From the sequence record OR896822.1: DNA of 64,000 nt, one strand, 5' to 3'. Below, in pieces: positions 3,569 through 55,511 of the stretch. Made by a program: the position numbers and the translations under genes. The notes under the pieces are model-generated. The model searched no databases. It was not told where the DNA came from and saw nothing but the letters and a program-made list of their open reading frames with translations. How positions within the stretch are numbered: the first letter of the stretch is position 1; each line of letters opens with the position of its first letter. The DNA comes from Salmonella phage vB_SenS-3.

Positions 3569-4201
3569 ATGACAAATGCTGCTATTGACTATAACAAGTT
3601 AAAATCAGCACCGGTTCATTTAGACGCTTACATTAAGTCTATTGATAGCGAATCCAAAGAGGGTGTTATAAAAATCCGTGGATTCGCTAATACAATTAGT
3701 AAAGATCGTGCTGGTGACGTAATTCCTGCTTCGGCATGGAAAACGTCTAATGCACTTGCTAACTACATGAAAAACCCGATTATTCTTTTCGGCCACGACC
3801 ATCGTCGTCCAATCGGCAAGTGTATTGATCTTAACCCTACTGAAATGGGTCTCGAAATTGAATGCGAGATTTATGAAAGTTCTGATCCAGCTATCTTCTC
3901 ACTAATTAAAAACGGTGTACTGAAAACCTTCAGTATCGGATTCCGCTGCCTAGACGCAGAATGGGATGAAGCTACTGACATATTTATTATTAAAGATTTA
4001 GAACTATACGAAGTTTCGGTAGTTTCTGTACCTTGTAATCAGGACTCAACGTTCAACCTCGCTAAGAGTATGAATGGCCACGATTACACTGAATGGCGCA
4101 AATCTTTTACTGCAACAAGTTCTAAGGCTGTCCCAGCTCAAGAACGTAATCTTTCTGAACTAGAAAAACTTGCGATAGCTTTAGGCTACGTTAAAGAATA
4201 A
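3569..4201 (+). CDS. prohead maturation protease (HK97 family)
   Basis: 210 aa immediately upstream of the major capsid gene; His-containing segment LFGHDHRRPIGK; size and position as in T5 pb11. Confidence 0.75.
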   Translation: MTNAAIDYNKLKSAPVHLDAYIKSIDSESKEGVIKIRGFANTISKDRAGDVIPASAWKTSNALANYMKNPIILFGHDHRRPIGKCIDLNPTEMGLEIECEIYESSDPAIFSLIKNGVLKTFSIGFRCLDAEWDEATDIFIIKDLELYEVSVVSVPCNQDSTFNLAKSMNGHDYTEWRKSFTATSSKAVPAQERNLSELEKLAIALGYVKE

Positions 4202-4218
4202 CGGAGAATTATTTAAAA

Positions 4219-5595
4219 ATGACTATTGATATTAATAAGCTGAAGGAAGAACTTGGTCTGGGTGATCTGGCTAAATCTCTGGAAGGTCTGACTGCTGCTC
4301 AGAAAGCTGCGGAAGCTAAGCGTCTGCGTGAAGAGCAGGAAGAAAAAGAACTGGCTCGTATGAACGACCTAGTATCTAAAGCTGTTGGTGAAGACCGTAA
4401 GCGTCTGGAAGAAGCTCTGGATCTGGTTAAGAACCTGGACGAGAAGTCTAAGAAGAGCGCAGAACTGTTTGCACAGACTGTAGAAAAGCAACAGGAAACC
4501 ATCGTTGGTCTTCAGGACGAAATCAAGTCTCTGTTGGCAGCTCGTGAAGGTCGTTCCTTCGTTGGTGATAGCGTAGCTAAAGCTCTTTATGGCACTCAGG
4601 ATGCTTTCGAAGATGAAGTTGAGAAACTGGTTCTTCTGTCTTATATGATGGAGAAGGACGTATTCGAAACTGAACATGGTAAGGCTCACGTTAAAGCTGT
4701 TAACGGTTCTTCTTCCGTTTCCATGTCTAGCGAAGCATACGAAACTATCTTCTCTACCCGTATTATCCGTGACCTGCAGAAGGAACTGGTAGTTGGTGCA
4801 CTGTTCGATGAACTGCCAATGTCCAGCAAAATCCTTACTATGCTCGTTGAACCAGAAGCTGGTCGTGCTACTTGGGTAGATGCTTCCAAATTCGGTACTG
4901 ACGAAACTGTTGGTGACGAAGTTAAAGGTCAACTGACTGAAATCAGCTTCAAAACTTACAAGCTGGCTGCTAAGTCCTTCATCACTGATGAAACTGAAGA
5001 AGATGCAATCTTCTCCCTGCTGCCTCTGCTGCGTAAGCGTCTGATCGAAGCACACGCTGTTTCTATCGAAGAAGCTTTCATGTCCGGTAATGGTACTGGT
5101 CAGCCTAAGGGTCTGCTGAAACTGGCTGCTGATGATGGTGCTAAGGTTGTTACCGAAGCTAAAGCTGACGGTTCTGTTCTGGTAACTGCTAAAACTATCT
5201 CCAAGCTGCGTCGTAAACTGGGCCGTCACGGTCTGAAACTTAGCAAACTGGTACTGATCGTATCTATGGATGCTTACTACGATCTGCTGGAAGATGAAGA
5301 ATGGCAGGATGTTGCCCAGGTTGGTAACGATGCTGTTAAACTGCAGGGTCAGGTTGGTCGTATTTACGGTCTGCCGGTTGTAGTTTCTGAGTACTTCCCA
5401 GCTAAAGCTGCTTCCGCTGAATTCGCAGTTATTGTTTATAAAGATAACTTCGTAATGCCGCGTCAGCGTGCCGTTACTGTTGAACGTGAGCGCCAAGCTG
5501 GCAAACAGCGTGACGCATACTACGTTACCCAGCGTGTTAACCTGCAACGTTACTTCGAAAACGGCGTTGTATCTGGTGCTTACGCTGCATCTTAA
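4219..5595 (+). CDS. major capsid protein with N-terminal coiled-coil scaffolding (delta) domain
   Basis: 458 aa; N-terminal about 160 aa is charged and coiled-coil-like (EELGLGDLAKSLEGLTAAQKAAEAKRLREEQEEKELARM); strongly optimised codon usage; followed by a strong terminator; size equals T5 pb8. Confidence 0.85.
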   Translation: MTIDINKLKEELGLGDLAKSLEGLTAAQKAAEAKRLREEQEEKELARMNDLVSKAVGEDRKRLEEALDLVKNLDEKSKKSAELFAQTVEKQQETIVGLQDEIKSLLAAREGRSFVGDSVAKALYGTQDAFEDEVEKLVLLSYMMEKDVFETEHGKAHVKAVNGSSSVSMSSEAYETIFSTRIIRDLQKELVVGALFDELPMSSKILTMLVEPEAGRATWVDASKFGTDETVGDEVKGQLTEISFKTYKLAAKSFITDETEEDAIFSLLPLLRKRLIEAHAVSIEEAFMSGNGTGQPKGLLKLAADDGAKVVTEAKADGSVLVTAKTISKLRRKLGRHGLKLSKLVLIVSMDAYYDLLEDEEWQDVAQVGNDAVKLQGQVGRIYGLPVVVSEYFPAKAASAEFAVIVYKDNFVMPRQRAVTVERERQAGKQRDAYYVTQRVNLQRYFENGVVSGAYAAS

Positions 5596-5614
5596 TACAG
5601 GCTTTTCAGCCGAT

Positions 5615-5641
5615 AAGGAGAGCTTCGGCTCTCCTTTTTTA
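5615..5641 (+). terminator. rho-independent terminator after major capsid gene
   Basis: Hairpin GGAGAGC-TTCG-GCTCTCC followed by TTTTTT. Confidence 0.75.
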
Positions 5642-5654
5642 TTGGGAAAAATAA

Positions 5655-6167
5655 ATGCAAATCATCACTGTTGAAGATTATAAACTATATGGGAACTTAA
5701 AACGTCCTGATATGGAAACTCAGGTTGAGATGATGATTAAAGCTGCCAATACGCTGATTACAAGCCTTCTAGGTATGGATGATGCAGACGCGGTAGATCA
5801 ATTAATCACCACAAAACCTAGCCGTAGGAAATATTTTCTGAGTTCCCCCTCAGCCACATCTATTACAAAGATTACTATTAACGAGAAAGAAATAGACCCG
5901 GAACAGTTTAAACTGTATCCTGATGGTGTTATTCTTCTTAAGTTTAATCCTCCTGAAGGGTATATGGATGTAGAGTATACTCAAGGTGGTTTCAATCCAA
6001 TGCCTGAAGATCTTAAACTGGCAGCATGTCTGTTAGTAGACCACTGGCATAAGCAAGATTATCGTCAAGCCAAGACTATTGGTGGTGAGACAGTTACGTT
6101 TAACAATACTAAGTCTGGTATTCCAGAGCATATTCGTACAATCATCGAAGTCTACAGGAGAGTATAA
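5655..6167 (+). CDS. head completion / head-tail adaptor protein (p144-like, by synteny)
   Basis: 170-aa ORF directly after capsid terminator; position matches connector genes of T5-like phages; no motif evidence. Confidence 0.45.
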   Translation: MQIITVEDYKLYGNLKRPDMETQVEMMIKAANTLITSLLGMDDADAVDQLITTKPSRRKYFLSSPSATSITKITINEKEIDPEQFKLYPDGVILLKFNPPEGYMDVEYTQGGFNPMPEDLKLAACLLVDHWHKQDYRQAKTIGGETVTFNNTKSGIPEHIRTIIEVYRRV

Positions 6168-6934
6168 TGGCTCTTTCTGATCTAGCCACACAAATTATTA
6201 AAGAGCAGCTAGATACTGCAGGACGATCTGAGAATAATAAGAATACTGTTGTGTATACAGTTGAGACAGGTTTGAAAGATCCTACAAGAGATGGTACAGT
6301 TGCACAGGCATCTTTCAAATTCTCAAAACCAGTATCTCAAGACTTATTAAACGTTAGGACAGCATCTATACTGAAGGCTGTTTCTTCTAATTTAGATTTT
6401 TCTGGTGATTTAGGCGCTCTAGAGAATTTAATTCAAGCAACAGCAGGTAAACGTTCTGCTGTTGGTAAAAAACGTTCTACCGGTAGAGTTCAGGTAAACT
6501 TTGGAGATCCTAGAGATACTGAAGATGGCTATTCTGGTGTAGTAACAGGTGCTTCCGGTCGTTTCGTATCGAACAGTAACATGCGTGCTATTCTTGAGAT
6601 AGTTGCTAAGGAATATTTAATCAAGGATATGAAAAAAGCAGGGGCACCATTGAAGTTCAGAACTGGTCGCTTTGCTAACTCCTTAAAGATTAAAGACGTT
6701 ATGCTACGTGATGTAGAAACTAGTAAAGGTGCTCCAGAGCTGAATGTGACGTATAACTATATGGTTCGTCCTTACTCTGTGTTCAACCCCGCAGTTTCTA
6801 CATATCGAAGACTTTCTCTACGACCTTACCCTGGCGCTCGAAACCCTCAAAAACTTATTGGGGAGGCAATCGCAAAAGCTGCAAGAGACCTGATTCACTC
6901 TAGATATAAAATCAAGGTTAATCAAGGAACCTAA
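6167..6934 (+). CDS. head-tail connector protein (p143-like, by synteny)
   Basis: 255-aa ORF, start overlaps previous stop (TAATG); synteny only. Confidence 0.4.
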   Translation: MALSDLATQIIKEQLDTAGRSENNKNTVVYTVETGLKDPTRDGTVAQASFKFSKPVSQDLLNVRTASILKAVSSNLDFSGDLGALENLIQATAGKRSAVGKKRSTGRVQVNFGDPRDTEDGYSGVVTGASGRFVSNSNMRAILEIVAKEYLIKDMKKAGAPLKFRTGRFANSLKIKDVMLRDVETSKGAPELNVTYNYMVRPYSVFNPAVSTYRRLSLRPYPGARNPQKLIGEAIAKAARDLIHSRYKIKVNQGT

Positions 6935-6937
6935 TAA

Positions 6938-7423
6938 ATGGATCACAGAACAAGTATTGCACAAGCAGTGGTTGACCGAATCGCCACACAAATGGATGGT
7001 TCACAACCTGACGAGTATTTCAATAACCTTTATGGAAACGTTTCTCGTCAAACTTATAAATTCGAGGAAATCCGAGAATTTCCTTTCGTGGCAGTTCATA
7101 TCGGAACTGAAACTGGGCAGTATCTTCCTTCAGGCCAACAGTGGATGTTTTTAGAACTTCCAATCCTCGTGTATGACAAAGAGAAAACAGATATTCAAGA
7201 GCAACTTGAAAAACTCGTAGCTGACATAAAAACCGTCATTGACACAGGTGGAAATTTAGAATATACTGTTAGTAAACCTAATGGATCGACCTTCCCATGT
7301 GAGGCAACTGATATGAGCATCACCTCAGTAGCTACAGATGAGGGTCTACTGGCCCCATATGGTTTAGCGGAAATAAATGTAACAGTGAGGTATCAGCCAC
7401 CTCGTAGGGCGCTTCGCAGATAA
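6938..7423 (+). CDS. tail terminator / tail completion protein (p142-like, by synteny)
   Basis: 161-aa ORF immediately before tail tube gene; synteny only. Confidence 0.4.
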   Translation: MDHRTSIAQAVVDRIATQMDGSQPDEYFNNLYGNVSRQTYKFEEIREFPFVAVHIGTETGQYLPSGQQWMFLELPILVYDKEKTDIQEQLEKLVADIKTVIDTGGNLEYTVSKPNGSTFPCEATDMSITSVATDEGLLAPYGLAEINVTVRYQPPRRALRR

Positions 7424-7449
7424 GTTACAGATTAGGAGAATATAAATAA

Positions 7450-8859
7450 ATGTCTTTACAACTATTACGTAATACTCGAATCTTCGTGTCTACGGTTAAG
7501 ACTGGTCACGATAAGACCAACACGCAAGAGATTCTAGTTCAAGATGATATTTCTTGGGGTCAGGACAGTAACTCAACCGATATTACTGTTAACGAAGCTG
7601 GTCCGCGTCCAACTCGTGGTTCAAAACGTTTCAACGACTCCCTGAATGCAGCTGAGTGGAGTTTCTCTACTTACATCCTGCCTTACTTAGATAAGACTAC
7701 TAGTAAGCAGATCGTTCCGGACTACATGCTGTGGCATGCTCTTTCTAGTGGTAAGCCTATCAACCTAGATGGTGATACAGGTGCTCACACTAACGAAACT
7801 AACTTCATGGTTAACTTTAAGGATAACGCATACCACGAGCTGGCAATGCTACATATTTACATCCTTACTGATAAAGCATGGAGCTACATCGATTCCTGTC
7901 AGATCAACCAGGCTGAAGTAAACGTTGATATCGAAGATATCGGTCGTGTAACTTGGTCAGGTAATGGTAACCAGCTGATTCCTCTGGATGCTGCTCCATT
8001 TGATCCTGATACTGTAGGTATTGATGATGAAACTTACATGACTATCCAGGGTTCTTACATCAAGAACAAACTGACTATCCTCAAAATTAAGGATATGGAT
8101 ACTGGTAAGGCGTATGACATTCCGATCACTGGTGGTAGCTTTACAATCAACAACAACATCACCTATCTGACTCCGAACGTCATGTCCCGCGTTAACATCC
8201 CAATCGGTTCATTTACTGGTGCATTCGAGTTAACTGGTTCTCTAACTGCTTATCTTAACGATAAAGCTCTAGGTTCTATGGATCTGTACAAAGATCTGAT
8301 TAAGACTCTTAAAGTAGTTAACCGTTTCGAAATCGCCCTAGTACTTGGTGGTGAATATGATGATGAGCGCCCAGCTGCTGTTCTAGTTGCTAAGCAAGCT
8401 CATGTAAACATCCCAACTATTGAGACTGATGATGTACTTGGTACTTCTGTAGAATTCAAAGCAATTCCTACTGATCTGGATACTGGTGACGAAGGTTATC
8501 TTGGTTTCTCTAATAAGTACACCAAAGCTACTATTGCAAATCTGATTGCAACTGGTGACGGTGGTAAAGCAGCTCCGGTTAAGGTAACAGGTATTACTGT
8601 TAAATCTGCGGGCGATGCAACTTCCGTTGAGAATAGCGCAACTCTTCAGATGACTGTAGACGTTTTACCTGCTGAAGCTACTAATAAGGAAGTAACTTGG
8701 TCTATTTCCTCTGGTACTGCTGCTACTATTGATGCAACTTCTGGTTTACTGACCGCTGATGCTTCTAAGACTGGTGCAGTTACTGTGAAAGCTGTAGCTA
8801 AAGATGGTTCTGGTGTAGAAGGTACTAAGAGCATTACAGTTACTGCTTCTGGTGGCTAA
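7450..8859 (+). CDS. tail tube protein with C-terminal Ig-like (Big_2-type) domain
   Basis: 469 aa; AGGAG RBS upstream; C-terminal VKVTGITVKSAGDATSVENSATLQMTVDVLPAEATNKEVTWSISSG...VTVKAVAKDGSG resembles a bacterial Ig-like domain; size close to T5 pb6. Confidence 0.75.
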   Translation: MSLQLLRNTRIFVSTVKTGHDKTNTQEILVQDDISWGQDSNSTDITVNEAGPRPTRGSKRFNDSLNAAEWSFSTYILPYLDKTTSKQIVPDYMLWHALSSGKPINLDGDTGAHTNETNFMVNFKDNAYHELAMLHIYILTDKAWSYIDSCQINQAEVNVDIEDIGRVTWSGNGNQLIPLDAAPFDPDTVGIDDETYMTIQGSYIKNKLTILKIKDMDTGKAYDIPITGGSFTINNNITYLTPNVMSRVNIPIGSFTGAFELTGSLTAYLNDKALGSMDLYKDLIKTLKVVNRFEIALVLGGEYDDERPAAVLVAKQAHVNIPTIETDDVLGTSVEFKAIPTDLDTGDEGYLGFSNKYTKATIANLIATGDGGKAAPVKVTGITVKSAGDATSVENSATLQMTVDVLPAEATNKEVTWSISSGTAATIDATSGLLTADASKTGAVTVKAVAKDGSGVEGTKSITVTASGG

Positions 8860-8863
8860 TTAA

Positions 8864-9763
8864 ATGTACTACTCTCTAATGCGAGAGTCAAAAGTTATAG
8901 TTGAGTACGATGGCAGGGCTTATCATTTTGATGCCCTGTCAAATTACGATATCAATACGTCCTATGAGGAATTTAAAACTCTTCGTAGGACTATCCATCG
9001 TAGAACCAACTATGCTGACTCTATTATTAATGCACAAACTCCATCTTCAATATCGCTGGCTATAAATTTTAGTAATACCCTTACTGAGGCTAACTTCTTT
9101 GAATGGATGGGCTTTGATAGAGAGGGTAACACATTCTTACTACCACTTTATAGTACAAATATTGAGCCAACAATGTTTAATATATACATAGTTAATAAAG
9201 ATAATAACTGTGTGTACTTTGAGAATTGCTATGTATCTACTGTAGACTTTTCTCTAGACAAAAGCGTTCCTATCCTAAACGTAGGAATTGAATCTGGTAA
9301 GTTCTCTGAGGTGTCTACTTTTACTCCTGCTGGTTCTATTGTTCAGGGTGAAGTTATGTCATATAGTCCTCCTAGAGTATCTACCAACAGTAATGTTTTA
9401 CCAGCTCTTTTATCCGCTTCTATGTCATTCCAGCAACAATGTTCTTGGAGAGAAGATAAAAGCGTATTTGACATAAACAAAATATATAATAATAAGAGAG
9501 CTTATGTTAATGAAATGAATGCTTCGGCAACAATTGCATTTTACTACACTAAGCGATTTGCTGGTGATATGTTTTATAATATTGAACCCGAAACTGACAT
9601 ACCATTAACCATCCGAAATGAACATATTTCGATTGACTTTCCTTCAGCACGTATAACAAAACGCCTACAATTCTCGGATATATACAGAGTTGAATGGGAT
9701 GTAATCCCTACTGCAGACTCTGATCCGGTAAGAATCGACTTCTTTGGAGAAATAAAGAAATGA
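8864..9763 (+). CDS. tail-associated protein (possibly collar protein p140-like)
   Basis: 299-aa ORF between tail tube and chaperone genes; assignment by synteny only. Confidence 0.35.
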   Translation: MYYSLMRESKVIVEYDGRAYHFDALSNYDINTSYEEFKTLRRTIHRRTNYADSIINAQTPSSISLAINFSNTLTEANFFEWMGFDREGNTFLLPLYSTNIEPTMFNIYIVNKDNNCVYFENCYVSTVDFSLDKSVPILNVGIESGKFSEVSTFTPAGSIVQGEVMSYSPPRVSTNSNVLPALLSASMSFQQQCSWREDKSVFDINKIYNNKRAYVNEMNASATIAFYYTKRFAGDMFYNIEPETDIPLTIRNEHISIDFPSARITKRLQFSDIYRVEWDVIPTADSDPVRIDFFGEIKK

Positions 9764-10164
9764 TCAATTTAAAAGATATTACCCTTGAAACTCGTACTAT
9801 TGAGCTGGCTTACCCAGGTATGCCTAACTTCAAGCTGCAACTGAACTACATGTCTCGTGCTGCATCTAAGCGTGTTATCTCTTCCGCTAAGCGTGATGAG
9901 TGGGTTAACGGTACTATGATTCAGGTTCAGGACGATGATAAGTTTATTGAAGCTTTCGTTGATACTGCAATTGCTGGCTGGACTGGCTTGACGATTGGAG
10001 ATGTTGAGAAGCTGATGCTTATCGAAACTGAAGCTGATCCTACTACTGAAGTTCCGTTTAGTCGCGATAACGCTATCATGCTTATGCAGAACTCTGCTGC
10101 GTTTGATTCTTGGATCAACCAGACAGTGTTCCACTTAGACACTTTTCGTAGCTCAAAAGCGTAA
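9760..10164 (+). CDS. putative tail assembly chaperone (upstream ORF)
   Basis: 134-aa ORF located just before the tape measure gene, the usual chaperone position. Confidence 0.4.
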   Translation: MINLKDITLETRTIELAYPGMPNFKLQLNYMSRAASKRVISSAKRDEWVNGTMIQVQDDDKFIEAFVDTAIAGWTGLTIGDVEKLMLIETEADPTTEVPFSRDNAIMLMQNSAAFDSWINQTVFHLDTFRSSKA

Positions 10165-10225
10165 GCAGTTACTAGATGCTGTTGCCGATTTTGCAGATAA
10201 ATGCATTAAATCCTCAGCATCTAAA

Positions 10226-10594
10226 ATGACAAAACAACAATATTTAATGCTTTGCGAGTCTCTAGGTATTGAACCTGATCCTAAGGCAATGCCTGTTGAA
10301 CTCGAAGATTTTCCACCTATTGTATCTACTAGTATGAATATTTATAATAGTCTTATTGACTGTTTCATACCAGGTGACTTTCCTATCTTTATAGGAAAAG
10401 ACAAAAGTGCATTAGGTGTTTTATTTGATATCTATGGGATTACTGATCCTATAGAGAAAGAGTTTGTTCTACACATCATCAATATATTTGATTCGAAAGC
10501 TGTAGATGCAGCTCGTAAGAGAGCCGAGAAGCATAGTAAACCTAATGGTCGTACCCCGAACATTAAACCACATGCTAGATCTCGAGCTCAGTAA
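10226..10594 (+). CDS. putative tail assembly chaperone (downstream ORF; frame open from 10139)
   Basis: 122-aa ORF in the +1 frame relative to 9760..10164; its frame is open from 10139 and overlaps the end of the upstream ORF; no clear SD before the ATG at 10226. Confidence 0.35.
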   Translation: MTKQQYLMLCESLGIEPDPKAMPVELEDFPPIVSTSMNIYNSLIDCFIPGDFPIFIGKDKSALGVLFDIYGITDPIEKEFVLHIINIFDSKAVDAARKRAEKHSKPNGRTPNIKPHARSRAQ

Positions 10595-10628
10595 AAGTTT
10601 CCTCCAATGGGCGTTCCACGATGAGGCT

Positions 10629-10662
10629 TGGCTCTGGGTGATTTGCCCAGAGCCTTTTTTAT
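10629..10662 (+). terminator. rho-independent terminator immediately upstream of tape measure gene
   Basis: Hairpin GGCTCTGGG-tgatttg-CCCAGAGCC followed by TTTTTT. Confidence 0.7.
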
Positions 10663-10674
10663 TGGGAAAAATAA

Positions 10675-13600
10675 ATGACTGATAAGCTAATACGAGAACT
10701 ACTTATAGATGTAAAGCAGAAAGGGGCAACCCGTACTGCAAAATCTATTGAGAACGTTTCCGATGCGTTAGAAAATGCTGCTGCCGCTTCCGAACTGACT
10801 AATGAGCAGTTAGGAAAAATGCCCAAAACTCTTTACTCCATTGAGAGGGCAGCGGATAGAGCAGCTAAAAGTCTAACTAAAATGCAGGCTAGCAGAGGTA
10901 TGATAGGTATCACCAAATCTATGGATAGTATTGGTGCTAAGTTAGATGACCTTGCTATTGCTATGATTGAGGTATCCGATAAGCTAGAGTCTGGATTTAC
11001 ACATGTTGGTAAATCTGTTAAGGCGATGGGTAACGATGTAGCTGCTGCAACTGAAAAAGTTCAAGATAGATTATACGATACAAACCGTGTTTTGTCGGGT
11101 ACTACTAGAGGCTTCAATGATACTACCACATCCGCAGGTCGTGCTAGTCGTGCTCTAGGTAATACCTCTGGTTCTGCACGGGGTGCAACTCGTGACTTCG
11201 CAGCAATGGCTAAAGTTGGTGGTTCTCTACCTCTTATGTATGCTGCTATCGCATCTAACGTGTTCGTTCTACAATCTGCATTCGAACAACTTAAGATGGG
11301 TGACCAGTTAAACCGTCTGGAGAAGTTCGGTACTATTGTAGGTACTCAAACAGGTACTCCGGTACAAACTCTAGCTAGATCTCTACAAGAGGCTGCTGGT
11401 TATGCAATCTCCTTCGAAGAAGCAATGAGACAGGCATCCTCTGCTTCTGCATATGGATTCGATGCCGAACAACTTAATAAATTTGGTCTAGTAGCCCGTC
11501 GTGCTGCTGCTGTTCTTGGTGTTGATATGACTGATGCACTTAACCGTGTAATCAAAGGTGTATCTAAACAAGAAATCGAACTTCTGGACGAACTTGGTGT
11601 TACTATTCGTCTTAATGATGCTTACGCTGACTACGTTAAACAGTTAAATGCTGCTAACACAGGTATCACATATAACGTCAATAGTCTTTCCACTTTCCAA
11701 AAGCAACAAGCATATGCTAACGCAGTTATTGCTGAATCTACTAAACGTTTCGGCTACTTGGATGACGTACTCCGTGCAACTCCATGGGAACAGTTTGCTG
11801 CTAACGCTGATGCTGCACTAAGAAAGGTTCAACAGGCTGCTGCTAAGTATTTAGGGCCAGTAATTGATTCTATCAACGCAGTGTTCTATACTTCTCAAGC
11901 ATCTATCTCGGCCTCTGCTGCTAGAGCACAGGAAGAAACTAACCGCCAGATTGACCCAGCTAACATTGGTGCTGTAGCTTTAAGTCTTTCCGCTTCTGAG
12001 GAGGGATATAATAAAGCTCTTGATATGTATAAAGAGTCTCTGGATAAGCGTAATAAACTAAAGACTGAGTTTGATAAACGTATGTCCCAAGCAGATGCTA
12101 GTACTGCTGCCGCTATTAGATTAGTGGGTGAGGGAATGCCTGTTGGATTAGCTGCTGGGGGGTTTGAAGTAGGGGGAGTGCGCATAGGTTCTTCCGAAGC
12201 TAACAAAAAGTTTGTAGAAGAAACCGCAGCTATGGGACTACAGGTAGCAAGGTTAGGTAAAGAAGTTGATGATTCTACTGAAAACCTTAATGCTTGGAAA
12301 TCTGCGTATCAAGCTGCTGGTGCTGCGGCTGCTAAGACTAATCCAGAATTTCAGAAGCAGATTAATCTGCAGAAGGATATGAATGACCCTGATGCGGTTT
12401 ATGACTTTAACTCCGCAACTCTGAAAGGACTGACGGAACAGCAGAAAGCATATGATCAGGCTAAGAAAACTGCTAGTGATTTAGCTAACGATATCCAGAA
12501 CATCGCTCAGAATACTAATACTGCGGCTAAAACTAGTGCATCCCTATCAGATACGATTAAAACTATTGAGTCTCTTTCTGCTGGTACTGGTAAAAATGCT
12601 GATGAGTATGTTAAGAGTCTGAACTTAGGATATAATACTCTTAGTGAGATGAAGACTGCTTCACAAGCTCTTGCTGGTTACGTAAAATTAACTGGTAATG
12701 AGACTAAGAATCAGTTAGAAGTTCAGCAGAAGATTGCAGAAGTATACAACCAGACTAAGGACAAAGAGAAAGCACAGGAAGCTGGTAGACGTCTGGAAAT
12801 CCAACAGTTAGAAGAACAGGAAGCAGCTCTTAAACGTGTCCTAGAAACTAACAAGGGTAATAAAGCAATCGAGAATGAAATAGCTAAGATTCAGTTAGAA
12901 CGTATCAAAGTTACTAACCAGGGTATGGAAGCCCAGAAGAAGGTTAAGGACTATACGGATAAGATTCTTGGTGTTGATCGTGAAATTGCTCTCCTGAATA
13001 ACCGTACTATGACAGATACTCAGTATCGTTTAGCTCAGTTGAACCTTGAACTGACTGTCGAGAAAGAGAAATACACATGGTATACTAAGCAAGCAGATAA
13101 GCAGAAAGAAGCAGAACAGTCAAGACGTGCTCAGGCACAGATTGAACGTGAAATCTGGAAATTCCGTCAAGATCAGCAGATGGAAATGGCTTCTGGACGC
13201 GAAAGAGCTCTTAATATTTCACAGACTAGCAGAAACGTTACTGGGGAATCTCAGAGACTAACTGAACAGCAAGCTCTGTACCAAAGTTTACTGGAAATTA
13301 CAAAAGGAAATGCACAAGCTCAGGAAGAGTATAAGCGTAAAATCCAAGAAACTTCGGCAGCTCTAGCACAGCTTAAGATGCAACGCGATGCTCAGATGCA
13401 GCAGCAAGTCACTTCTTCTGTTGGTGGTGTTTACACTCCAACAACTGGACTGGAAGGAGATGATAAAGCAAATATGGATATGCAGAATAGAATGGCATCC
13501 TATGACCAGGCTATCTCTAAACTATCCGAGCTGAACTCTGAAGCAACTGCAGTGGCACAAAGTATGGGTAACCTAACTAATGCTATGATTCAGTTCTCTC

Positions 13601-14382
13601 AGGGATCTCTGGATACTACATCTTTAGTTGCTGCTGGTATGCAAACTGTGTCTTCAATGATTCAGTATAGTGTTGGTCAACAGGTAAGTGCTATTGATGC
13701 AGCTATTGCAGCAGAACAGAAACGTGATGGTAAATCTGAGCAATCCAAAGCTAAGATCAAGAAGTTAGAGGCTGAAAAGCTCAAGATCCAGCAAGATGCA
13801 GCTAAGAAGCAAATCATTATCCAGACGGCAGTAGCGGTGATGCAAGCAGCAACAGCTGTTCCATACCCATTTTCTATTCCTCTGATGGTTGCGGCTGGTT
13901 TAGCAGGTGCTATGGCTCTTGCTCAAGCATCCTCTGCATCTGGTATGTCTTCTATTGGGGACTCTGGTGCTGAGACAGCTGGTTACTTAACTCTTGGAGA
14001 GCGCCAGAAGAACGTAGACGTTTCTATGTCGGCTAACGCAGGAGAACTTTCTTATATTCGAGGGGACCAAGGGATTGGTAATGCTAACTCTTTCGTACCT
14101 CGTGCAGAAGGTGGTAATATGTATCCTGGAGTTAGTTACCAGATGGGTGAGCATGGTACCGAAGTAATCACTCCTATGGTTCCGATGAAGGCTACTCCTA
14201 CTGATGAACTCAAAGGATCTTCAAAGGGTACATCGGGTAGACCTATTGTGCTGAACATCAGTACGATGGATGCGGCTAGCTTCCGAGACTTTGCTTCGAG
14301 CAACAGTGCTGCTTTCAGGGATGCCGTGGAACAGGCTCTTAATGAGAATGGAACCACCCTGAAATCACTTGGTAATTCTTAA
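10675..14382 (+). CDS. tape measure protein (pb2-like)
   Basis: 1235-aa ORF, Ala/Gln/Lys-rich and coiled-coil-like throughout; hydrophobic segment near C-terminus (IIQTAVAVMQAATAVPYPFSIPLMVAAGLAGAMALAQA); located between chaperones and distal tail protein. Confidence 0.85.
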   Translation: MTDKLIRELLIDVKQKGATRTAKSIENVSDALENAAAASELTNEQLGKMPKTLYSIERAADRAAKSLTKMQASRGMIGITKSMDSIGAKLDDLAIAMIEVSDKLESGFTHVGKSVKAMGNDVAAATEKVQDRLYDTNRVLSGTTRGFNDTTTSAGRASRALGNTSGSARGATRDFAAMAKVGGSLPLMYAAIASNVFVLQSAFEQLKMGDQLNRLEKFGTIVGTQTGTPVQTLARSLQEAAGYAISFEEAMRQASSASAYGFDAEQLNKFGLVARRAAAVLGVDMTDALNRVIKGVSKQEIELLDELGVTIRLNDAYADYVKQLNAANTGITYNVNSLSTFQKQQAYANAVIAESTKRFGYLDDVLRATPWEQFAANADAALRKVQQAAAKYLGPVIDSINAVFYTSQASISASAARAQEETNRQIDPANIGAVALSLSASEEGYNKALDMYKESLDKRNKLKTEFDKRMSQADASTAAAIRLVGEGMPVGLAAGGFEVGGVRIGSSEANKKFVEETAAMGLQVARLGKEVDDSTENLNAWKSAYQAAGAAAAKTNPEFQKQINLQKDMNDPDAVYDFNSATLKGLTEQQKAYDQAKKTASDLANDIQNIAQNTNTAAKTSASLSDTIKTIESLSAGTGKNADEYVKSLNLGYNTLSEMKTASQALAGYVKLTGNETKNQLEVQQKIAEVYNQTKDKEKAQEAGRRLEIQQLEEQEAALKRVLETNKGNKAIENEIAKIQLERIKVTNQGMEAQKKVKDYTDKILGVDREIALLNNRTMTDTQYRLAQLNLELTVEKEKYTWYTKQADKQKEAEQSRRAQAQIEREIWKFRQDQQMEMASGRERALNISQTSRNVTGESQRLTEQQALYQSLLEITKGNAQAQEEYKRKIQETSAALAQLKMQRDAQMQQQVTSSVGGVYTPTTGLEGDDKANMDMQNRMASYDQAISKLSELNSEATAVAQSMGNLTNAMIQFSQGSLDTTSLVAAGMQTVSSMIQYSVGQQVSAIDAAIAAEQKRDGKSEQSKAKIKKLEAEKLKIQQDAAKKQIIIQTAVAVMQAATAVPYPFSIPLMVAAGLAGAMALAQASSASGMSSIGDSGAETAGYLTLGERQKNVDVSMSANAGELSYIRGDQGIGNANSFVPRAEGGNMYPGVSYQMGEHGTEVITPMVPMKATPTDELKGSSKGTSGRPIVLNISTMDAASFRDFASSNSAAFRDAVEQALNENGTTLKSLGNS

Positions 14383-14389
14383 TACTGGA

Positions 14390-14417
14390 GGAGGACTTTA
14401 TGTCCTCCTTTTCTTTA
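14390..14417 (+). terminator. rho-independent terminator after tape measure gene
   Basis: Hairpin GGAGGAC-tttat-GTCCTCC followed by TTTTCTTT. Confidence 0.65.
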
Positions 14418-14435
14418 TGGAAAAATAAAAATTTC

Positions 14436-14464
14436 TTGATAAAATTTTCCAATCCTATTATAAT
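14436..14464 (+). promoter_or_regulatory. sigma70-like promoter upstream of distal tail protein gene
   Basis: TTGATA at 14436-14441, 17-nt spacer, TATAAT at 14459-14464, then AAGAGGAG RBS and ATG at 14491. Confidence 0.5.
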
Positions 14465-14490
14465 ATTGTTATTAAGAGGAGAAATTAACT

Positions 14491-15105
14491 ATGAGACTAC
14501 CAGACCCATACACGAACCCAGAGCTATCAGGGTTAGGTTTTGAAAGCGTTAACTTAGTAGACAATGACCCTATGATTCGTGATGAATTACCTAATGGTAA
14601 AGTTAGGGAGGTTAAGGTGTCTGCTCAATATTGGGGTATTAATATCTCTTATCCAGAATTATTCCCAGATGAATTTGCTAAATTAGACTCATTCATTCTA
14701 GATTATAAAAGAACAGGTAGCTATATTGATGTGTTATTACCACAATATGAAGCTTTCCGAGTTCGTGGTGATACTAGTGCTGTAAATATTCCTGCTGGAC
14801 AAAAAGGTTCAACAGTTATTATGGACACTAAAGGTACACTTCGTGGACTGCCTAAACCAGGCGATTTATTTAAATTGTCCAACCATCCAAAAGTGTATAA
14901 AATCACTTCTATCAACACAGCAGGAAATACTTGGAATATAAGTGTTTATCCTGATCTATTCATTACTACTACGGGTAGTGAGAAACCGGTATTTAATGGT
15001 ATTCTGTTTAGAACTAAATTAATGAACGGAGACAGTTTTGGCTCTACGTTAAATAGTAATGGTACATATACTGGTATTTCACTTTCCTTGAGGGAAAGTC
15101 TATGA
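14491..15105 (+). CDS. distal tail protein (pb9-like)
   Basis: 204-aa ORF immediately after tape measure and before the baseplate hub; size equals T5 pb9. Confidence 0.6.
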   Translation: MRLPDPYTNPELSGLGFESVNLVDNDPMIRDELPNGKVREVKVSAQYWGINISYPELFPDEFAKLDSFILDYKRTGSYIDVLLPQYEAFRVRGDTSAVNIPAGQKGSTVIMDTKGTLRGLPKPGDLFKLSNHPKVYKITSINTAGNTWNISVYPDLFITTTGSEKPVFNGILFRTKLMNGDSFGSTLNSNGTYTGISLSLRESL

Positions 15106-17951
15106 AGAAAATTCTTGACAGTGCAAGAGAGTATTTAAGAACCAATAATAAAATAAAAACTGCATGCCTTATTACTCTTGAATTGCCAAGCTCTACCGGA
15201 TCAAGTTCTGCGTACATTTATCTTACAGACTATTTTAGGGATGTAATTTATAATGGTATTCTTTACACATCTGGTAAAGTTAAGTCTATAACAACACATA
15301 AACAAAATAGAAAACTTTCCATTGGTAGCCTTTCTTTTACTATCACAGGTACTGCTGAAGATGAAGTATTAAAACTAGTCCAAAATGGTGTATCCTTCCT
15401 AGATAGATCCATCTCAATCCATCAAGCGGTTATTGATGAAGAAGGTAACATTCTTACTGTAGATCCAGACACTAATGGTCCTTTACTTTACTTCCGTGGT
15501 AAAATCACTGGTGGTGGTATTAAGGATAACATTGGTACTTCTGGAGTTAGTACATCTGTTATTACATGGAACTGTTCAAACCAATTCTATGACTTTGATA
15601 GAGTAAACGGACGTTTCACAGATGATGCTGACCATAGGGGACTTGAGATTGTTGCTGGCCAATTAGTTCCATCTAATGGTGCTAAACGACCTGAATATCA
15701 AGAGGACTACGGATTCTTCCACGCTAACAAGAGTATTTCTATTCTTGCTAAGTATCAGGTTCAGGAAGAACGTTATAAGTTACAATCTAAGAAAAAGTTA
15801 TTTGGTCTTTCTAGAAGCTATAGCCTAAAGAAATACTATGAGACTGTAACTAAGGAAGTCGATCTTGATTTTAACTTAGCAGCTAAATTCCTTCCAGTAG
15901 TATACGGAGTTCAGAAAATTCCTGGAATCCCAGTATTTGCAGATACTGAACTGCATAACCCTAATATCGTATATGTAGTATACGCTTTCTGTGAGGGTGA
16001 GATTGATGGATTTCTAGATTTCTACTTTAGTGATGTACCAATGATCTGTATTGATCCTAATGATAGTAAGTCTCGTACTTGTTTTGGTACTAAGAAAGTA
16101 GCTGGTGATACCATGCAACGTATTGCTTCTGGTCAACCAAGCTCTGAACCTTCTGTTCATGGACAGGAATATAAGTATAATGATGGTAATGGCGATATCC
16201 GTATCTGGACTTATCATGGTAAGGCTGATCAATCTGCTGCTGATGTTCTAGTTAACATTGCAAAAGAGAAAGGTTTCTATCTACAGAACATGAATGAGAA
16301 TGGACCGGAATACTGGGACTCTCGTTATAAACTGTTAGATACTGCTTATGCTATCGTTCGCTTTACTATTAATGAAAACAGAACAGAAATTCCAGAAGTT
16401 AGTGCTGAAGTTCAAGGTAAGAAGATTAAGATCTATCATTCAGATGGTAGAGTAACTGCTGATAAGACCAGCTTAAATGGTATATGGCAAACTCTGGACT
16501 ACCTAACCTCTGATCGCTACGGTGCTAATATCACTATCGATCAGTTCCCACTCCAGCAACTTATTCAAGAAGCAGCTATTTTGGATATCATTGATGAATC
16601 CTACCAGGTTTCTTGGCAACCCTATTGGAGATACGTTGGATGGACTGATGCTGTAGGAGAGAATAGACAAATAGTTCAAATGAACACTATTCTCGATACC
16701 TCTGAGTCCGTATTTAAAAACGTGCAGGGATTAATAGAGTCTTATGGTGGTGCTATCAACAACTTATCTGGTCAATATAGAATAACTGTTGAGAAGTTCT
16801 CAAACACCCCATTAGAGATTGACTTCTTAGATACCTACGGTGATTTGGAGCTATCAGATACCACAGGTAGAAATAAGTTCAACTCAGTACAAGCCTCCAT
16901 ATTAGATCCTGCATTAAGCTGGAAGACTAACTCCATTACATTCTTTAACTCTATATTTAAGGAACAAGATAAAGGATTAGATAAAAAACTTCAGCTTTCT
17001 TTTGCAAATATCACTAACTACTATACTGCACGTAGCTTTGCAGATAGAGAACTGAAAAAGTCTCGTTACTCACGAACTCTCACATTCTCATTACCATATC
17101 ATTTCATAGGCATTGAGCCTAACGATCCGATTGCTTTTACATATGGTCGTTATGGTTGGAATAAGAAATACTTCCTAGTTGATGAGGTTGAAAACTCTAG
17201 AGAAGGTAAGATTAATATTACACTGCAAGAGTATGGTGAGGATGTATTTATTAACTCCGAGCAGGTTGATAATAGTGGTAACGATATCCCTGATGTTAGT
17301 AATAATGTACTGCCTCCTAGAGACTTTATGTATACACCAACACCGGGTGGACAAGTAGGATCTATTGGTAAGAATGGTGAGTTATCTTGGCTTCCTAGCT
17401 TAACTAATAACGTTGTTTACTACTCCATTGTTCATTCTGGACATGCTGATCCTTACATCGTACAGCAATTAGAAACTAATCCAAATCTACGAATGATCCA
17501 AGAAATTATTGGAGAACCTGCTGGTTTAGCAGTCTTTGAGATTAGAGCTGTAGATATTAATGGTAGACGAAGTTCTCCTGTAACACTATCGGTAGAACTT
17601 AACTCTGCTAAAAACTTAAGCGTCGTTAGTAATTTCAGGGTTACTAATACAGCTTCAGGAGATGCATCGGAGTTTGTAGGACCAGACGTTAAGTTGGCCT
17701 GGGATAGAATTCCAGAAGAAAATATCATTGATGGAATCTTCTACACTCTCGAAATCTACGATAACCTAGATCGTTTATTAAGAAGTGTACGAATTGAAGA
17801 TCAGTATGTCTACGATTATCTACTGATATACAATAAGGCAGACTATGCTCTTCATAACGAGGATGCTCTAGGTATTAATAGGAAGTTACGCTTCCGTATA
17901 AGAGCAGAAGGTGATAATGGCGAGCAATCTGTGGATTGGGCATCTATTTAA
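15102..17951 (+). CDS. baseplate hub / tail tip protein (pb3-like)
   Basis: 949-aa ORF following the distal tail protein; size equals T5 pb3; synteny. Confidence 0.65.
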   Translation: MKKILDSAREYLRTNNKIKTACLITLELPSSTGSSSAYIYLTDYFRDVIYNGILYTSGKVKSITTHKQNRKLSIGSLSFTITGTAEDEVLKLVQNGVSFLDRSISIHQAVIDEEGNILTVDPDTNGPLLYFRGKITGGGIKDNIGTSGVSTSVITWNCSNQFYDFDRVNGRFTDDADHRGLEIVAGQLVPSNGAKRPEYQEDYGFFHANKSISILAKYQVQEERYKLQSKKKLFGLSRSYSLKKYYETVTKEVDLDFNLAAKFLPVVYGVQKIPGIPVFADTELHNPNIVYVVYAFCEGEIDGFLDFYFSDVPMICIDPNDSKSRTCFGTKKVAGDTMQRIASGQPSSEPSVHGQEYKYNDGNGDIRIWTYHGKADQSAADVLVNIAKEKGFYLQNMNENGPEYWDSRYKLLDTAYAIVRFTINENRTEIPEVSAEVQGKKIKIYHSDGRVTADKTSLNGIWQTLDYLTSDRYGANITIDQFPLQQLIQEAAILDIIDESYQVSWQPYWRYVGWTDAVGENRQIVQMNTILDTSESVFKNVQGLIESYGGAINNLSGQYRITVEKFSNTPLEIDFLDTYGDLELSDTTGRNKFNSVQASILDPALSWKTNSITFFNSIFKEQDKGLDKKLQLSFANITNYYTARSFADRELKKSRYSRTLTFSLPYHFIGIEPNDPIAFTYGRYGWNKKYFLVDEVENSREGKINITLQEYGEDVFINSEQVDNSGNDIPDVSNNVLPPRDFMYTPTPGGQVGSIGKNGELSWLPSLTNNVVYYSIVHSGHADPYIVQQLETNPNLRMIQEIIGEPAGLAVFEIRAVDINGRRSSPVTLSVELNSAKNLSVVSNFRVTNTASGDASEFVGPDVKLAWDRIPEENIIDGIFYTLEIYDNLDRLLRSVRIEDQYVYDYLLIYNKADYALHNEDALGINRKLRFRIRAEGDNGEQSVDWASI

Positions 17952-55435: not shown

Positions 55436-55444
55436 TAAAAACAA

Positions 55445-55470
55445 GGAGATCTTCGGGTCTCCTTTTTTCT
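55445..55470 (+). terminator. rho-independent terminator after nrdA
   Basis: Hairpin AGGAGATC-TTCG-GGTCTCCT followed by TTTTTT. Confidence 0.7.
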
Positions 55471-55482
55471 TTGAAATTTTAC

Positions 55483-55511
55483 TTGCTAATCTCTACCAGA
55501 TTTGCTATAAT
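55483..55511 (+). promoter_or_regulatory. T5 early-type promoter for nrdB
   Basis: TTGCTA-17-TATAAT with TG extension (TGCTATAAT). Confidence 0.65.

What the first reader, a model, noticed from the sequence alone, without database searches (positions are those of the whole stretch)
5633..10677. Exact 25-nt terminator-to-start-codon module repeated before two late genes
CCTTTTTTATTGGGAAAAATAAATG occurs identically at 5633-5657 (after the capsid terminator, before the head completion gene) and at 10653-10677 (after the chaperone-region terminator, before the tape measure gene). A related sequence follows the tape measure terminator (14409-14425, TTTTCTTTATGGAAAAATAAA). The module fuses a terminator U-tract to a fixed spacer and an SD-poor start codon, suggesting a conserved device for setting stoichiometry (attenuation plus weak re-initiation) between abundant and low-copy virion proteins.
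Basis: seen in the sequence. Interest (0 to 1): 0.4.

Follow-up and report, generated by a model that had tools for sequence, protein, structure and literature searches.

The report
Terminator tail fused to ribosome-binding site
The repeated 25 bases are the end of a transcription terminator joined directly to the ribosome-binding site and start codon of the next gene, a conserved but ordinary way for T5-like phages to make less of two low-copy virion proteins than of the abundant ones encoded just upstream.

Summary
CCTTTTTTATTGGGAAAAATAAATG occurs exactly at 5633-5657 and 10653-10677, with 0 matches expected by chance. The window is a T5-like Salmonella phage (Epseptimavirus, 100% identical to vB_SenS-3).

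The 25-mer breaks down as follows:
- the last two C of an intrinsic-terminator stem;
- the U-tract (T6ATT);
- a weak Shine-Dalgarno core (GGGA, -4.2 kcal/mol, spaced 6-7 nt from the start);
- an A-rich spacer and the ATG.

The genes that follow are the head-tail adaptor (12 copies per virion, after the 775-copy capsid gene) and the tape measure protein.

The T5 reference record already annotates terminators at all three sites. The third, "related" sequence is the upstream part of the known late promoter P-G25, not a start-codon module.

Both intergenic blocks are strongly conserved across Demerecviridae. In distant genera GGGA is replaced by GGAG, GAGG or AGGAGG, which shows it is the SD.

Full 25-nt identity is specific to this clade: most relatives have 3 more bases before the tape-measure ATG. 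T5 itself has an ORF inserted inside the site-2 tail.

The same 23-mer recurs in unrelated phage and bacterial contigs, so it is a recurrent low-complexity solution. The attenuation-for-stoichiometry reading is plausible but inferred. "SD-poor" and "re-initiation" are inaccurate. This is ordinary and of low interest.

The parts
5600..5611 (+). Small hairpin GGCT-TTTC-AGCC just after the capsid gene stop codon (5593-5595)
   Evidence: It is part of the MFE fold. Genera keep the hairpin with changed bases: PR1 has GGCA..TGCC and My1 has GGCT..AGCC.
5615..5636 (+). Terminator 1 hairpin (AAGGAGAGC-TTCG-GCTCTCCTT) after the major capsid gene
   Evidence: Found by the terminator scan, with an energy of -14.5 kcal/mol. 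Its orthologue is annotated as a rho-independent terminator in T5 AY543070 and in phage Shiner. The sequence is invariant in T5-likes and in the genera PR1, Shiner and RP7.
5633..5657 (+). 25-mer copy 1. It comprises the stem end CC (5633-5634), the U-tract T6ATT (5635-5643), the SD core GGGA (5644-5647), the spacer AAAATAA (5648-5654) and the ATG of the head-tail adaptor gene (5655-5657; gene 5655-6167)
   Evidence: The adaptor is identified by phrog_442. In the enterobacterial genera this block is 82-100% identical to the window, against 58-79% for the coding flanks; in Vibrio phage VPT02 it is 61% (flanks 56-71%).
10598..10626 (+). Deeply conserved noncoding element TTTCCTCCAATGGGCGTTCCACGATGAGG between the chaperone stop codon and terminator 2
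   Evidence: It lies in the fourth most conserved 60-nt window of the aligned 10.9-kb late-gene region (pi 0.005) and is conserved across six genera with 1-nt indels, so it is not coding. In the viral collection it occurs with a T-run only at this site of Demerecviridae. Its function is unknown, and pairing with the U-tract and SD is inconclusive.
10630..10654 (+). Terminator 2 hairpin (GGCTCTGGG-TGATTTG-CCCAGAGCC) between the tail assembly chaperone genes and the tape measure gene
   Evidence: Found by the terminator scan, with an energy of -19.1 kcal/mol. Five stem pairs show compensatory changes across genera. It is annotated as a terminator in the T5, PR1 and Shiner records.
10653..10677 (+). 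25-mer copy 2. It comprises the stem end CC, the U-tract (10655-10663), the SD core GGGA (10664-10667), the spacer (10668-10674) and the ATG of the tape measure gene (10675-14382)
   Evidence: Most relatives read ...GGGAAAAATAAAACATG or ...AAAATATG, which is 3 nt longer.
14387..14411 (+). Terminator 3 hairpin after the tape measure gene
   Evidence: Found by the terminator scan, with an energy of -15.7 kcal/mol. It is annotated as a terminator in T5.
14409..14429 (+). Related sequence TTTTCTTTATGGAAAAATAAA: the U-tract of terminator 3 followed by the A/T-rich stretch immediately upstream of the -35 hexamer of late promoter P-G25
   Evidence: The 75-nt feature 'promoter P-G 25' in T5 AY543070 starts at the last base of the terminator feature.
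14436..14464 (+). Orthologue of late promoter P-G25 (TTGATA-17-TATAAT, 11 of 12), followed by a strong RBS (AAGAGGAG) and the distal tail protein gene at 14491
   Evidence: P-G25 was validated as a late promoter by primer extension (PMC7472727).
7239..7267 (+). Orthologue of late promoter P-J5 (TTGACA-17-TATACT) inside the tail terminator protein gene. It re-boosts transcription before the tail tube gene
   Evidence: T5 annotates P-J5 inside T5.146. This stretch has pi 0.005. P-J5 is a validated late promoter.

Best explanation
The repeated 25-mer is a junction of two ordinary signals. The first is the 3' end of a rho-independent terminator (stem end plus U-tract). The second is the translation initiation region of the next gene (weak SD GGGA, 7-nt A-rich spacer, ATG).

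Terminator 1 follows the capsid gene, and terminator 2 follows the tail tube and chaperone genes. Because the next start codons lie 18-20 nt after the stems, the adaptor and tape-measure genes can only be transcribed by RNA polymerase that reads through these terminators. The terminators therefore act as leaky internal attenuators of the long late operon. Promoters P-J5 and P-G25 restore transcription further down.

On read-through RNA, the unstructured U-rich and A-rich tail next to a stable hairpin offers a modest ribosome landing site. Expression of the downstream low-copy proteins is thus lowered at both the transcription and the translation level.

The near-identity of the two tails reflects one family-wide template kept by purifying selection. 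The full 25-nt identity in this genome comes from a clade-specific 3-nt indel at site 2.

What is shown: the anatomy, the conservation, the SD assignment, and the absence of a promoter or known structured RNA. What is inferred: partial termination, its effect on protein ratios, and the strength of translation.
For: - The 25-mer is exact at both sites and each copy follows a strong hairpin.
- T5 AY543070 annotates terminators at all three sites and promoters P-G25 and P-J5 in the same region. The Shiner record annotates terminators at all three sites; the PR1 record annotates them only before and after the tape-measure gene (sites 2 and 3).
- The stem of terminator 2 has 5 compensatory pairs.
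- In seven other genera the layout hairpin / T-run / purine block / A-rich spacer / ATG is kept at both sites. GGGA is replaced by GGAG, GAGG, AGGTG or AGGAGG.
- SD pairing energy is -4.2 kcal/mol at a spacing of 6-7 nt. The capsid gene has -6.6, the tube gene -7.3 and the distal tail protein gene -9.1.
- Other late starts share the ATAAATG context.
- A further terminator-to-start junction on the - strand (about 40543) has the same GGGA-N7-ATG geometry.
- The intergenic blocks have pi 0.012-0.025 against 0.26 at third codon positions. Against distant genera, T1+tail is 82-100% identical in the four enterobacterial genera (61% in Vibrio phage VPT02) and the site-2 intergenic block 75-89%, versus 52-79% for the coding flanks.
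- Constraint stops at the ATG at site 1 (pi3 0.27 downstream), so no hidden promoter lies there.
- No Rfam family matches.
- Virion copy numbers are 775 capsid, 12 adaptor, 6 tail terminator protein and 120 tube (PMC11313276).
- P-G25 and P-J5 are validated late sigma-70 promoters (PMC7472727).
- The exact 23-mer also serves as a start region in unrelated phage and bacterial contigs.
Against: - No transcript or protein measurement was available, so read-through frequency and translation strength are unknown.
- The hairpin sequence of terminator 1 is invariant across enterobacterial genera, with no compensatory changes. The tail is identical in Providencia phage PR1 although its flanks are only 58-67% identical. 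That is more sequence constraint than a generic terminator plus weak RBS would seem to need.
- A deeply conserved extra element sits upstream of terminator 2 (10598-10626) and is unexplained.
Confidence: 0.8

Rival explanations
1. The tail (ATTGGGAAAAATAAA) is a specific operator. A phage- or host-encoded RNA-binding factor would recognise it on both mRNAs and co-regulate translation of the adaptor and the tape measure protein, in the manner of T4 RegA-type translational repressors.
For: - The primary sequence of the tail is identical across Tequintavirus, Epseptimavirus and Priunavirus although their coding flanks have diverged.
- The two sites share a 23-nt core in nearly all close relatives.
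- Some within-genome resemblance of the two tails persists in My1 and in the Vibrio phages.
Against: - T5 itself has lost the site-2 tail to an ORF insertion.
- L059 replaces the site-1 tail with AGAGGTATATAATG.
- Distant genera substitute ordinary SD sequences and vary the spacing.
- Within-genome similarity (5.4 edits) is about the same as orthologous distances between genera (6.0-6.3).
- The same 23-mer occurs as a start region in Clostridia and Nostoc contigs and in a marine-type siphovirus, none of which share T5 proteins.
Confidence: 0.06
2. The sequence just downstream of the U-tract is a terminator-distal element. It would tune how efficiently RNA polymerase terminates, and that is why all three late terminators, including the one with no start codon after it, carry T-run / AT / GG / AAAAATAAA.
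For: - All three exact copies of GGAAAAATAAA in 64 kb lie directly after the three late-operon terminators.
- Site 3 has the motif without a start codon.
- From my own knowledge, not checked here: established in vitro work on T3 and T7 early terminators shows that terminator-distal sequence affects efficiency (Telesnitsky and Chamberlin 1989).
Against: - At site 3 the motif is already explained as the A/T-rich upstream region of P-G25.
- At sites 1 and 2 the GG(G)A block behaves as an SD in orthologues.
- Other terminators in the window are followed by unrelated sequences.
- This rival is compatible with the main explanation rather than exclusive of it.
Confidence: 0.08
3. The identity is an evolutionary by-product. 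The conserved intergenic blocks would be module-boundary linkers that are homogenised by recombination or gene conversion between sites and between co-infecting phages, with no function of the shared sequence itself.
For: - The blocks sit at the borders between head, connector-tail, tape-measure and tail-tip gene groups.
- Mobile ORFs of one family insert exactly at these junctions.
- Loci show mosaic combinations of site-2 and site-3 variants.
- PR1 has a site-1 block 100% identical to T5 inside diverged flanks.
Against: - The two hairpins differ completely, so any conversion tract would be only about 23 nt.
- Both sites are conserved orthologously across genera.
- There is no clear excess of within-genome similarity.
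- The pieces map cleanly onto U-tract, SD, spacer and ATG.
Confidence: 0.05

Closest known systems
Putative rho-independent terminators and late promoters P-G25 and P-J5 annotated in Escherichia phage T5 (AY543070)
   Same: These are orthologous positions and nearly identical sequences. They comprise a terminator after the capsid gene, a terminator before the tape measure region, a terminator after the tape measure gene followed at once by P-G25, and P-J5 before the tube gene. P-G25 and P-J5 are experimentally validated late promoters.
   Different: The T5 record does not describe the shared tail/RBS as a unit. T5 carries an extra ORF (T5.141) inside the site-2 tail, so only site 1 has the 23-mer there.
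Internal leaky terminators that set protein ratios within an operon. Examples from my own knowledge: T7 T-phi after capsid gene 10, the f1/M13 terminator after coat gene VIII, and the E. coli rplL-rpoB attenuator
   Same: A strong hairpin plus U-tract is placed right after a very abundant product. Downstream essential genes have no promoter of their own and therefore depend on read-through.
   Different: Read-through has been measured in those systems, whereas here it is only inferred. In this phage the next start codon follows the U-tract within 12 nt, and the same start region is used twice.
Shine-Dalgarno translation initiation regions with an A/U-rich standby or enhancer context
   Same: There is a purine core complementary to the 16S rRNA 3' end at a spacing of 6-7 nt. 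The flanks are unstructured and rich in A and U. The ATAAATG context is shared with other late genes.
   Different: The SD core (GGGA) is weaker than those of the abundant virion proteins. The U-rich part doubles as the terminator U-tract.

Membership tests
Rho-independent (intrinsic) terminator | G+C-rich hairpin followed immediately by a U-tract, on the coding strand downstream of an ORF | tested here: met
   Hairpins lie at 5615-5636, 10630-10654 and 14387-14411, with energies of -14.5, -19.1 and -15.7 kcal/mol. They are followed by T6ATT, T6ATT and T4CTTT.
Rho-independent (intrinsic) terminator | The stem is maintained in evolution by compensatory changes | tested here: met
   In terminator 2, 5 of 10 pairs change on both sides and 96.7% of cells are paired. 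The stem of terminator 1 is invariant in the enterobacterial genera and is replaced by other G+C-rich hairpins in Vibrio phages. For terminator 1 the test is therefore uninformative rather than negative.
Rho-independent (intrinsic) terminator | RNA 3' ends or a drop in transcription at the U-tract in vivo or in vitro | not testable with these tools
   No transcript data were found for T5-like late regions. The T5 record calls these terminators 'putative'.
Shine-Dalgarno translation initiation region | Purine-rich core complementary to the anti-SD, 5-9 nt upstream of a start codon that opens a conserved gene | tested here: met
   GGGA pairs at -4.2 kcal/mol with a spacing of 6-7 nt. The ATGs open the adaptor and tape-measure genes. 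Orthologues have GGAG, GAGG or AGGAGG at the same place.
Sigma-70 promoter P-G25 (applies to site 3 only) | -35 and -10 hexamers with a 17-nt spacer, orthologous to the mapped T5 promoter | tested here: met
   TTGATA-17-TATAAT lies at 14436-14464. It is nearly identical in T5, where the record annotates 'promoter P-G 25'. It is a validated late promoter.
Sigma-70 promoter hidden behind sites 1 and 2 | Promoter hexamers, or unusual synonymous-site conservation, downstream of the module | tested here: not met
   No + strand promoter-like site lies within 5637-5700 or 10657-10740. Third-position diversity is normal after site 1 (0.27). After site 2 it is only moderately reduced (0.094), as it is at the 5' ends of other genes.
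Attenuator or riboswitch with alternative antiterminator pairing | A conserved alternative helix that competes with the terminator or masks the SD, supported by covariation | tested here: inconclusive
   The single-sequence MFE fold pairs GUUCC..GAUGAGG with the U-tract and GGGAA. On nine lineages 84.5% of cells are paired, against 78.6% when the register is slid by one, and covariation is not clearly above the shuffles. The consensus fold omits this helix.
Known structured RNA families (Rfam 15) | Covariance-model match | tested here: not met
   In 4000-16000 there were only two chance-level hits (E 0.16-0.2, far below the gathering scores).

The most novel reading that the evidence does not exclude
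The tail ATTGGGAAAAATAAA(TG) could be a portable cis-element rather than a generic RBS. Under this reading a specific factor reads it, or it sets read-through efficiency, and it co-ordinates the adaptor and tape-measure proteins. It would work together with the unexplained, deeply conserved element upstream of terminator 2 (10598-10626). Its reappearance behind an unrelated hairpin before the tape measure gene of a marine-type siphovirus (L004/L025) would then be transfer or convergence on the same device.
Probability: 0.08. Interest if true: 0.5.

Novelty: already known. Interest (0 to 1): 0.15.

Why it matters
The finding gives a clean, family-wide picture of how the T5 late operon is wired: long transcripts with two leaky internal terminators, and two internal promoters that lower and raise expression to match virion copy numbers. 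That picture is useful for annotation. For example, the 36-aa CDS called across terminator 2 in the source record is probably spurious. It is also useful for engineering T5-like phages, and it points to sites worth checking in a Term-seq experiment. It does not reveal a new mechanism.

Tried and rejected
1. Hidden promoter after the module. Rejected: there are no hexamers, and synonymous diversity after site 1 is normal.
2. Concerted evolution or gene conversion of the two tails. Within-genome distance is 5.4 edits against 6.0-6.3 between orthologues. The permutation fraction of 0.02 is confounded by phylogeny, so this is not convincing (one search timed out).
3. SD-masking outer helix at site 2. 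Inconclusive.
4. Known RNA family. None found.
5. Consensus fold of site 1 across genera. The alignment was poor and gave nothing useful.
6. Horizontal transfer as the source of the L004/L025 copy. That phage has no close relative in the phage collection (at most 32% tape-measure identity), so the question could not be resolved. The 23-mer also turns up in Clostridia and Nostoc contigs, and the 19-mer core gives chance hits in AT-rich contigs. This favours convergence on a low-complexity sequence.
7. A loose pattern for the site-2 upstream element. It returned mostly chance hits outside Demerecviridae.
8. Literature searches for transcript maps of the T5 late region. These found none. The supplement of PMC7472727 held no promoter sequences as text.
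9. T5 nick sites and RNase III sites. I considered these from my own knowledge and dismissed them: there is no GCGC motif and the stems are only 9-10 bp.


Full report
**Observation.** The 25-mer CCTTTTTTATTGGGAAAAATAAATG is present exactly at 5633-5657 and 10653-10677 on the + strand. There are no further copies even with 3 mismatches, and none in 100 shuffles. A repeat search independently groups these two sites with 14407-14431 (76% identity). The other noncoding repeat families in the window are T5-type early promoter/leader cassettes, so reuse of regulatory cassettes is common in this genome. The quoted third sequence actually spans 14409-14429.

**Where the window comes from.** The window is 100% identical to Salmonella phage vB_SenS-3 (Demerecviridae, Epseptimavirus), and 547 phage records match the region. 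The gene order is portal, protease, major capsid (4219-5595), site 1, head-tail adaptor (5655-6167, phrog_442), tail completion, tail terminator protein, tube (7450-8859), minor tail protein, and two chaperone ORFs. Site 2 follows, then the tape measure gene (10675-14382), site 3, and the distal tail protein gene (14491).

**Anatomy.** Each site begins in the 3' arm of a strong hairpin followed by a T-run. The hairpins are at 5615-5636 (UUCG loop, -14.5 kcal/mol), 10630-10654 (-19.1) and 14387-14411 (-15.7). The 25-mer breaks down as CC (stem end), T6ATT (U-tract), GGGA, AAAATAA and ATG.

GGGA pairs with the 16S 3' end at -4.2 kcal/mol, 6-7 nt before the ATG. This is weaker than the capsid (-6.6), tube (-7.3) and distal tail protein (-9.1) sites. 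It is in the range of several other late genes (-3.6 to -4.9). Five of 16 late starts share the ATAAATG context. Folding leaves the tail essentially unstructured (a 6-bp A-U hairpin at best, z-score about 0.2).

**The third site.** The T5 reference record annotates putative rho-independent terminators at all three orthologous positions. It annotates 'promoter P-G 25' starting at the last base of the third terminator, and 'promoter P-J 5' inside the tail terminator protein gene. In the window these correspond to TTGATA-17-TATAAT at 14436-14464 and TTGACA-17-TATACT at 7239-7267. P-G25 and P-J5 were shown by primer extension to be late promoters used by sigma-70 holoenzyme (PMC7472727). The 'related' third sequence is therefore the U-tract of terminator 3 plus the A/T-rich region just upstream of the -35 hexamer of P-G25. 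It is not a start-codon module.

**Close relatives.** The exact 23-mer occurs in 30 IMG/VR stretches, and 28 of them are from contigs of T5-like size. In 27 aligned T5-like loci the 65-nt site-1 intergenic region is almost invariant.

At site 2 the core CCTTTTTTATTGGGAAAAATAAA is also nearly invariant. Most genomes continue with ACATG or ATATG, and only the window's clade reads AAATG. The 25-nt identity is therefore a 23-nt family-wide similarity extended by a clade-specific 3-nt indel. Outgroups have the shorter spacing, so the polarity of the indel is uncertain.

T5 itself has a 250-aa ORF (T5.141) inserted right after TTTTTTATT at site 2, and the tape measure gene then follows ...GGAAAACATTAGATG. 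L059 has AGAGGTATATAATG at site 1. The tail is thus replaceable.

**Strength of constraint.** Among the 27 loci, mean pairwise diversity is 0.025 for intergenic region 1, 0.012 for region 2 and 0.040 for region 3. Codon positions 1, 2 and 3 have 0.081, 0.048 and 0.26. The two 25-mers are in the most conserved 7% of 25-nt windows, but P-J5 and the 5' ends of the capsid and tube genes are even more conserved. Third-position diversity right after the adaptor ATG is normal (0.27), so the constrained element ends at the start codon.

**Distant genera.** In Sugarlandvirus, Priunavirus, Myunavirus, Novosibvirus and three Vibrio-phage lineages, both sites keep the layout hairpin / T-run / purine block / A-rich spacer / ATG. 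The purine block becomes GGAG, GAGG, AGGTG or AGGAGG, which identifies GGGA as the SD. Terminator 1 plus its tail is 82-100% identical to the window in the enterobacterial genera, while the coding flanks are 58-79% identical. Intergenic region 2 is 75-89% identical against flanks of 52-67%. The stem of terminator 2 shows five compensatory pairs. The two tails are not clearly more alike within a genome (5.4 edits) than orthologous tails are between genera (6.0-6.3). This favours a shared template over gene conversion.

**Outside the family.** A 42.6-kb marine-type siphovirus contig (L004, also L025) has an unrelated hairpin (AAAAGCCGC-TTTTAA-GCGGC), then the same 23-mer, then a tape measure gene of another family (phrog_9483). 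It has no close relative in the phage collection. In bacterial genomes the 23-mer occurs in Clostridia MAGs behind an AT-rich hairpin. It also occurs in a Nostoc MAG and another Clostridia MAG, where its ATG opens ORFs of 247 and 203 aa. The 19-nt core also gives chance hits in AT-rich coding DNA. The sequence is a recurrent low-complexity solution, not a T5 signature.

**Mechanism.** The shown facts are two canonical intrinsic terminators, each followed within 18-20 nt by the start of an essential virion gene, with no promoter-like site and no room for one. It follows that adaptor and tape-measure mRNA must arise by read-through, so the terminators are leaky attenuators. P-J5 and P-G25 raise transcription again before the tube gene and the tail-tip genes.

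This matches virion copy numbers: 775 capsid subunits against 12 adaptor and 6 tail terminator protein subunits, and 120 tube subunits upstream of site 2 (PMC11313276). From my own knowledge, the tape measure protein is present in about 3 copies. The weaker SD adds a translational step-down. None of this has been measured, and no transcript data were found.

**Rivals.**
- A specific operator is made unlikely by the T5 insertion, the L059 replacement, the SD substitutions and the occurrences in unrelated organisms.
- A terminator-distal tuning element is compatible with the main explanation but untested.
- Recombination linkers are possible contributors to the extreme conservation.
- An SD-masking helix formed by the conserved element upstream of terminator 2 is inconclusive.
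- No Rfam family matches.

**Verdict.** It is partly wrong on the points 'SD-poor', 're-initiation', 'fixed spacer', and the nature of the third site. The elements are orthologues of features already annotated in T5, and the kind of element is textbook. What remains unexplained is the unusually strict sequence conservation of terminator 1 and of the element at 10598-10626.

Noticed in passing
window 10598-10626: The noncoding element TTTCCTCCAATGGGCGTTCCACGATGAGG lies between the chaperone stop codon and terminator 2. It is in one of the most conserved 60-nt windows of the aligned late-gene region and is kept across six Demerecviridae genera with 1-nt indels, so it is not coding. It contains a CCUCC (anti-SD-like) motif. 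Its function is unknown.
   Followed up: partly
L035, L046 and L058 (between the capsid stop codon and terminator 1); L037/L060 = T5 (T5.141, inside the site-2 tail): ORFs of one family (189-250 aa, with shared motifs GSRCPKC, LKYGIT and LPDGYxETC) are inserted exactly at these conserved junctions in some T5-like phages. Each comes with its own upstream hairpin and RBS. They behave like mobile, homing-type genes that target conserved intergenic DNA.
   Followed up: partly
window 9760-10164 and 10226-10594: The second chaperone ORF has no SD (+1.2 kcal/mol). Its reading frame is open back to 10139, overlapping the end of the first ORF, and one PHROG profile (phrog_313, 258 positions) covers both ORFs. 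This suggests a +1 or -2 frameshift fusion around ...TCAAAAGCGTAA (10139-10164), analogous to the G/GT tail chaperones.
   Followed up: partly
window 10572-10682 (MT004791 vBSenS3_187): The source record annotates a 36-aa 'hypothetical protein' that runs across terminator 2 and the module. It is probably a spurious gene call.
   Followed up: no
window 5615-5636 and 55443-55464: The hairpin of terminator 1 (AAGGAGAGC-TTCG-GCTCTCCTT) is sequence-invariant across the enterobacterial Demerecviridae genera, with no compensatory changes. A near-copy (AAGGAGATC-TTCG-GGTCTCCTT) precedes a promoter-like site at 55483-55511. This is more constraint than hairpin formation alone requires.
   Followed up: partly
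window - strand, about 40543-40500 and about 28465-28430: Two further terminator-like hairpins are followed directly by start codons: TTTTGTGTATTTGGGATATGTAAATG (102-aa ORF, same GGGA-N7-ATG geometry) and CTTTTTAACTTATG (325-aa ORF). Most other terminators in the window are followed by promoters.
   Followed up: partly
window 14470-14496: The leader and RBS after P-G25 (ATTAAGAGGAGAAATTAACTATGAGA; T5 has ATTAAAGAGGAGAAATTAACTATGAGA) looks the same as the 'RBSII' ribosome-binding site of pQE-type expression vectors. This rests on my memory and was not checked against a vector sequence.
   Followed up: no
L004 9509-9531 (- strand) and L025 3124-3146: A 42.6-kb marine-type siphovirus contig carries the identical 23-mer behind an unrelated hairpin and directly before its tape measure gene. 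A small reverse-oriented gene lies just upstream.
   Followed up: partly
window 20797-20987: There is a tandem 42-nt repeat (4 copies, 72-100% identity) that encodes alanine- and serine-rich repeats in a late-region ORF.
   Followed up: no
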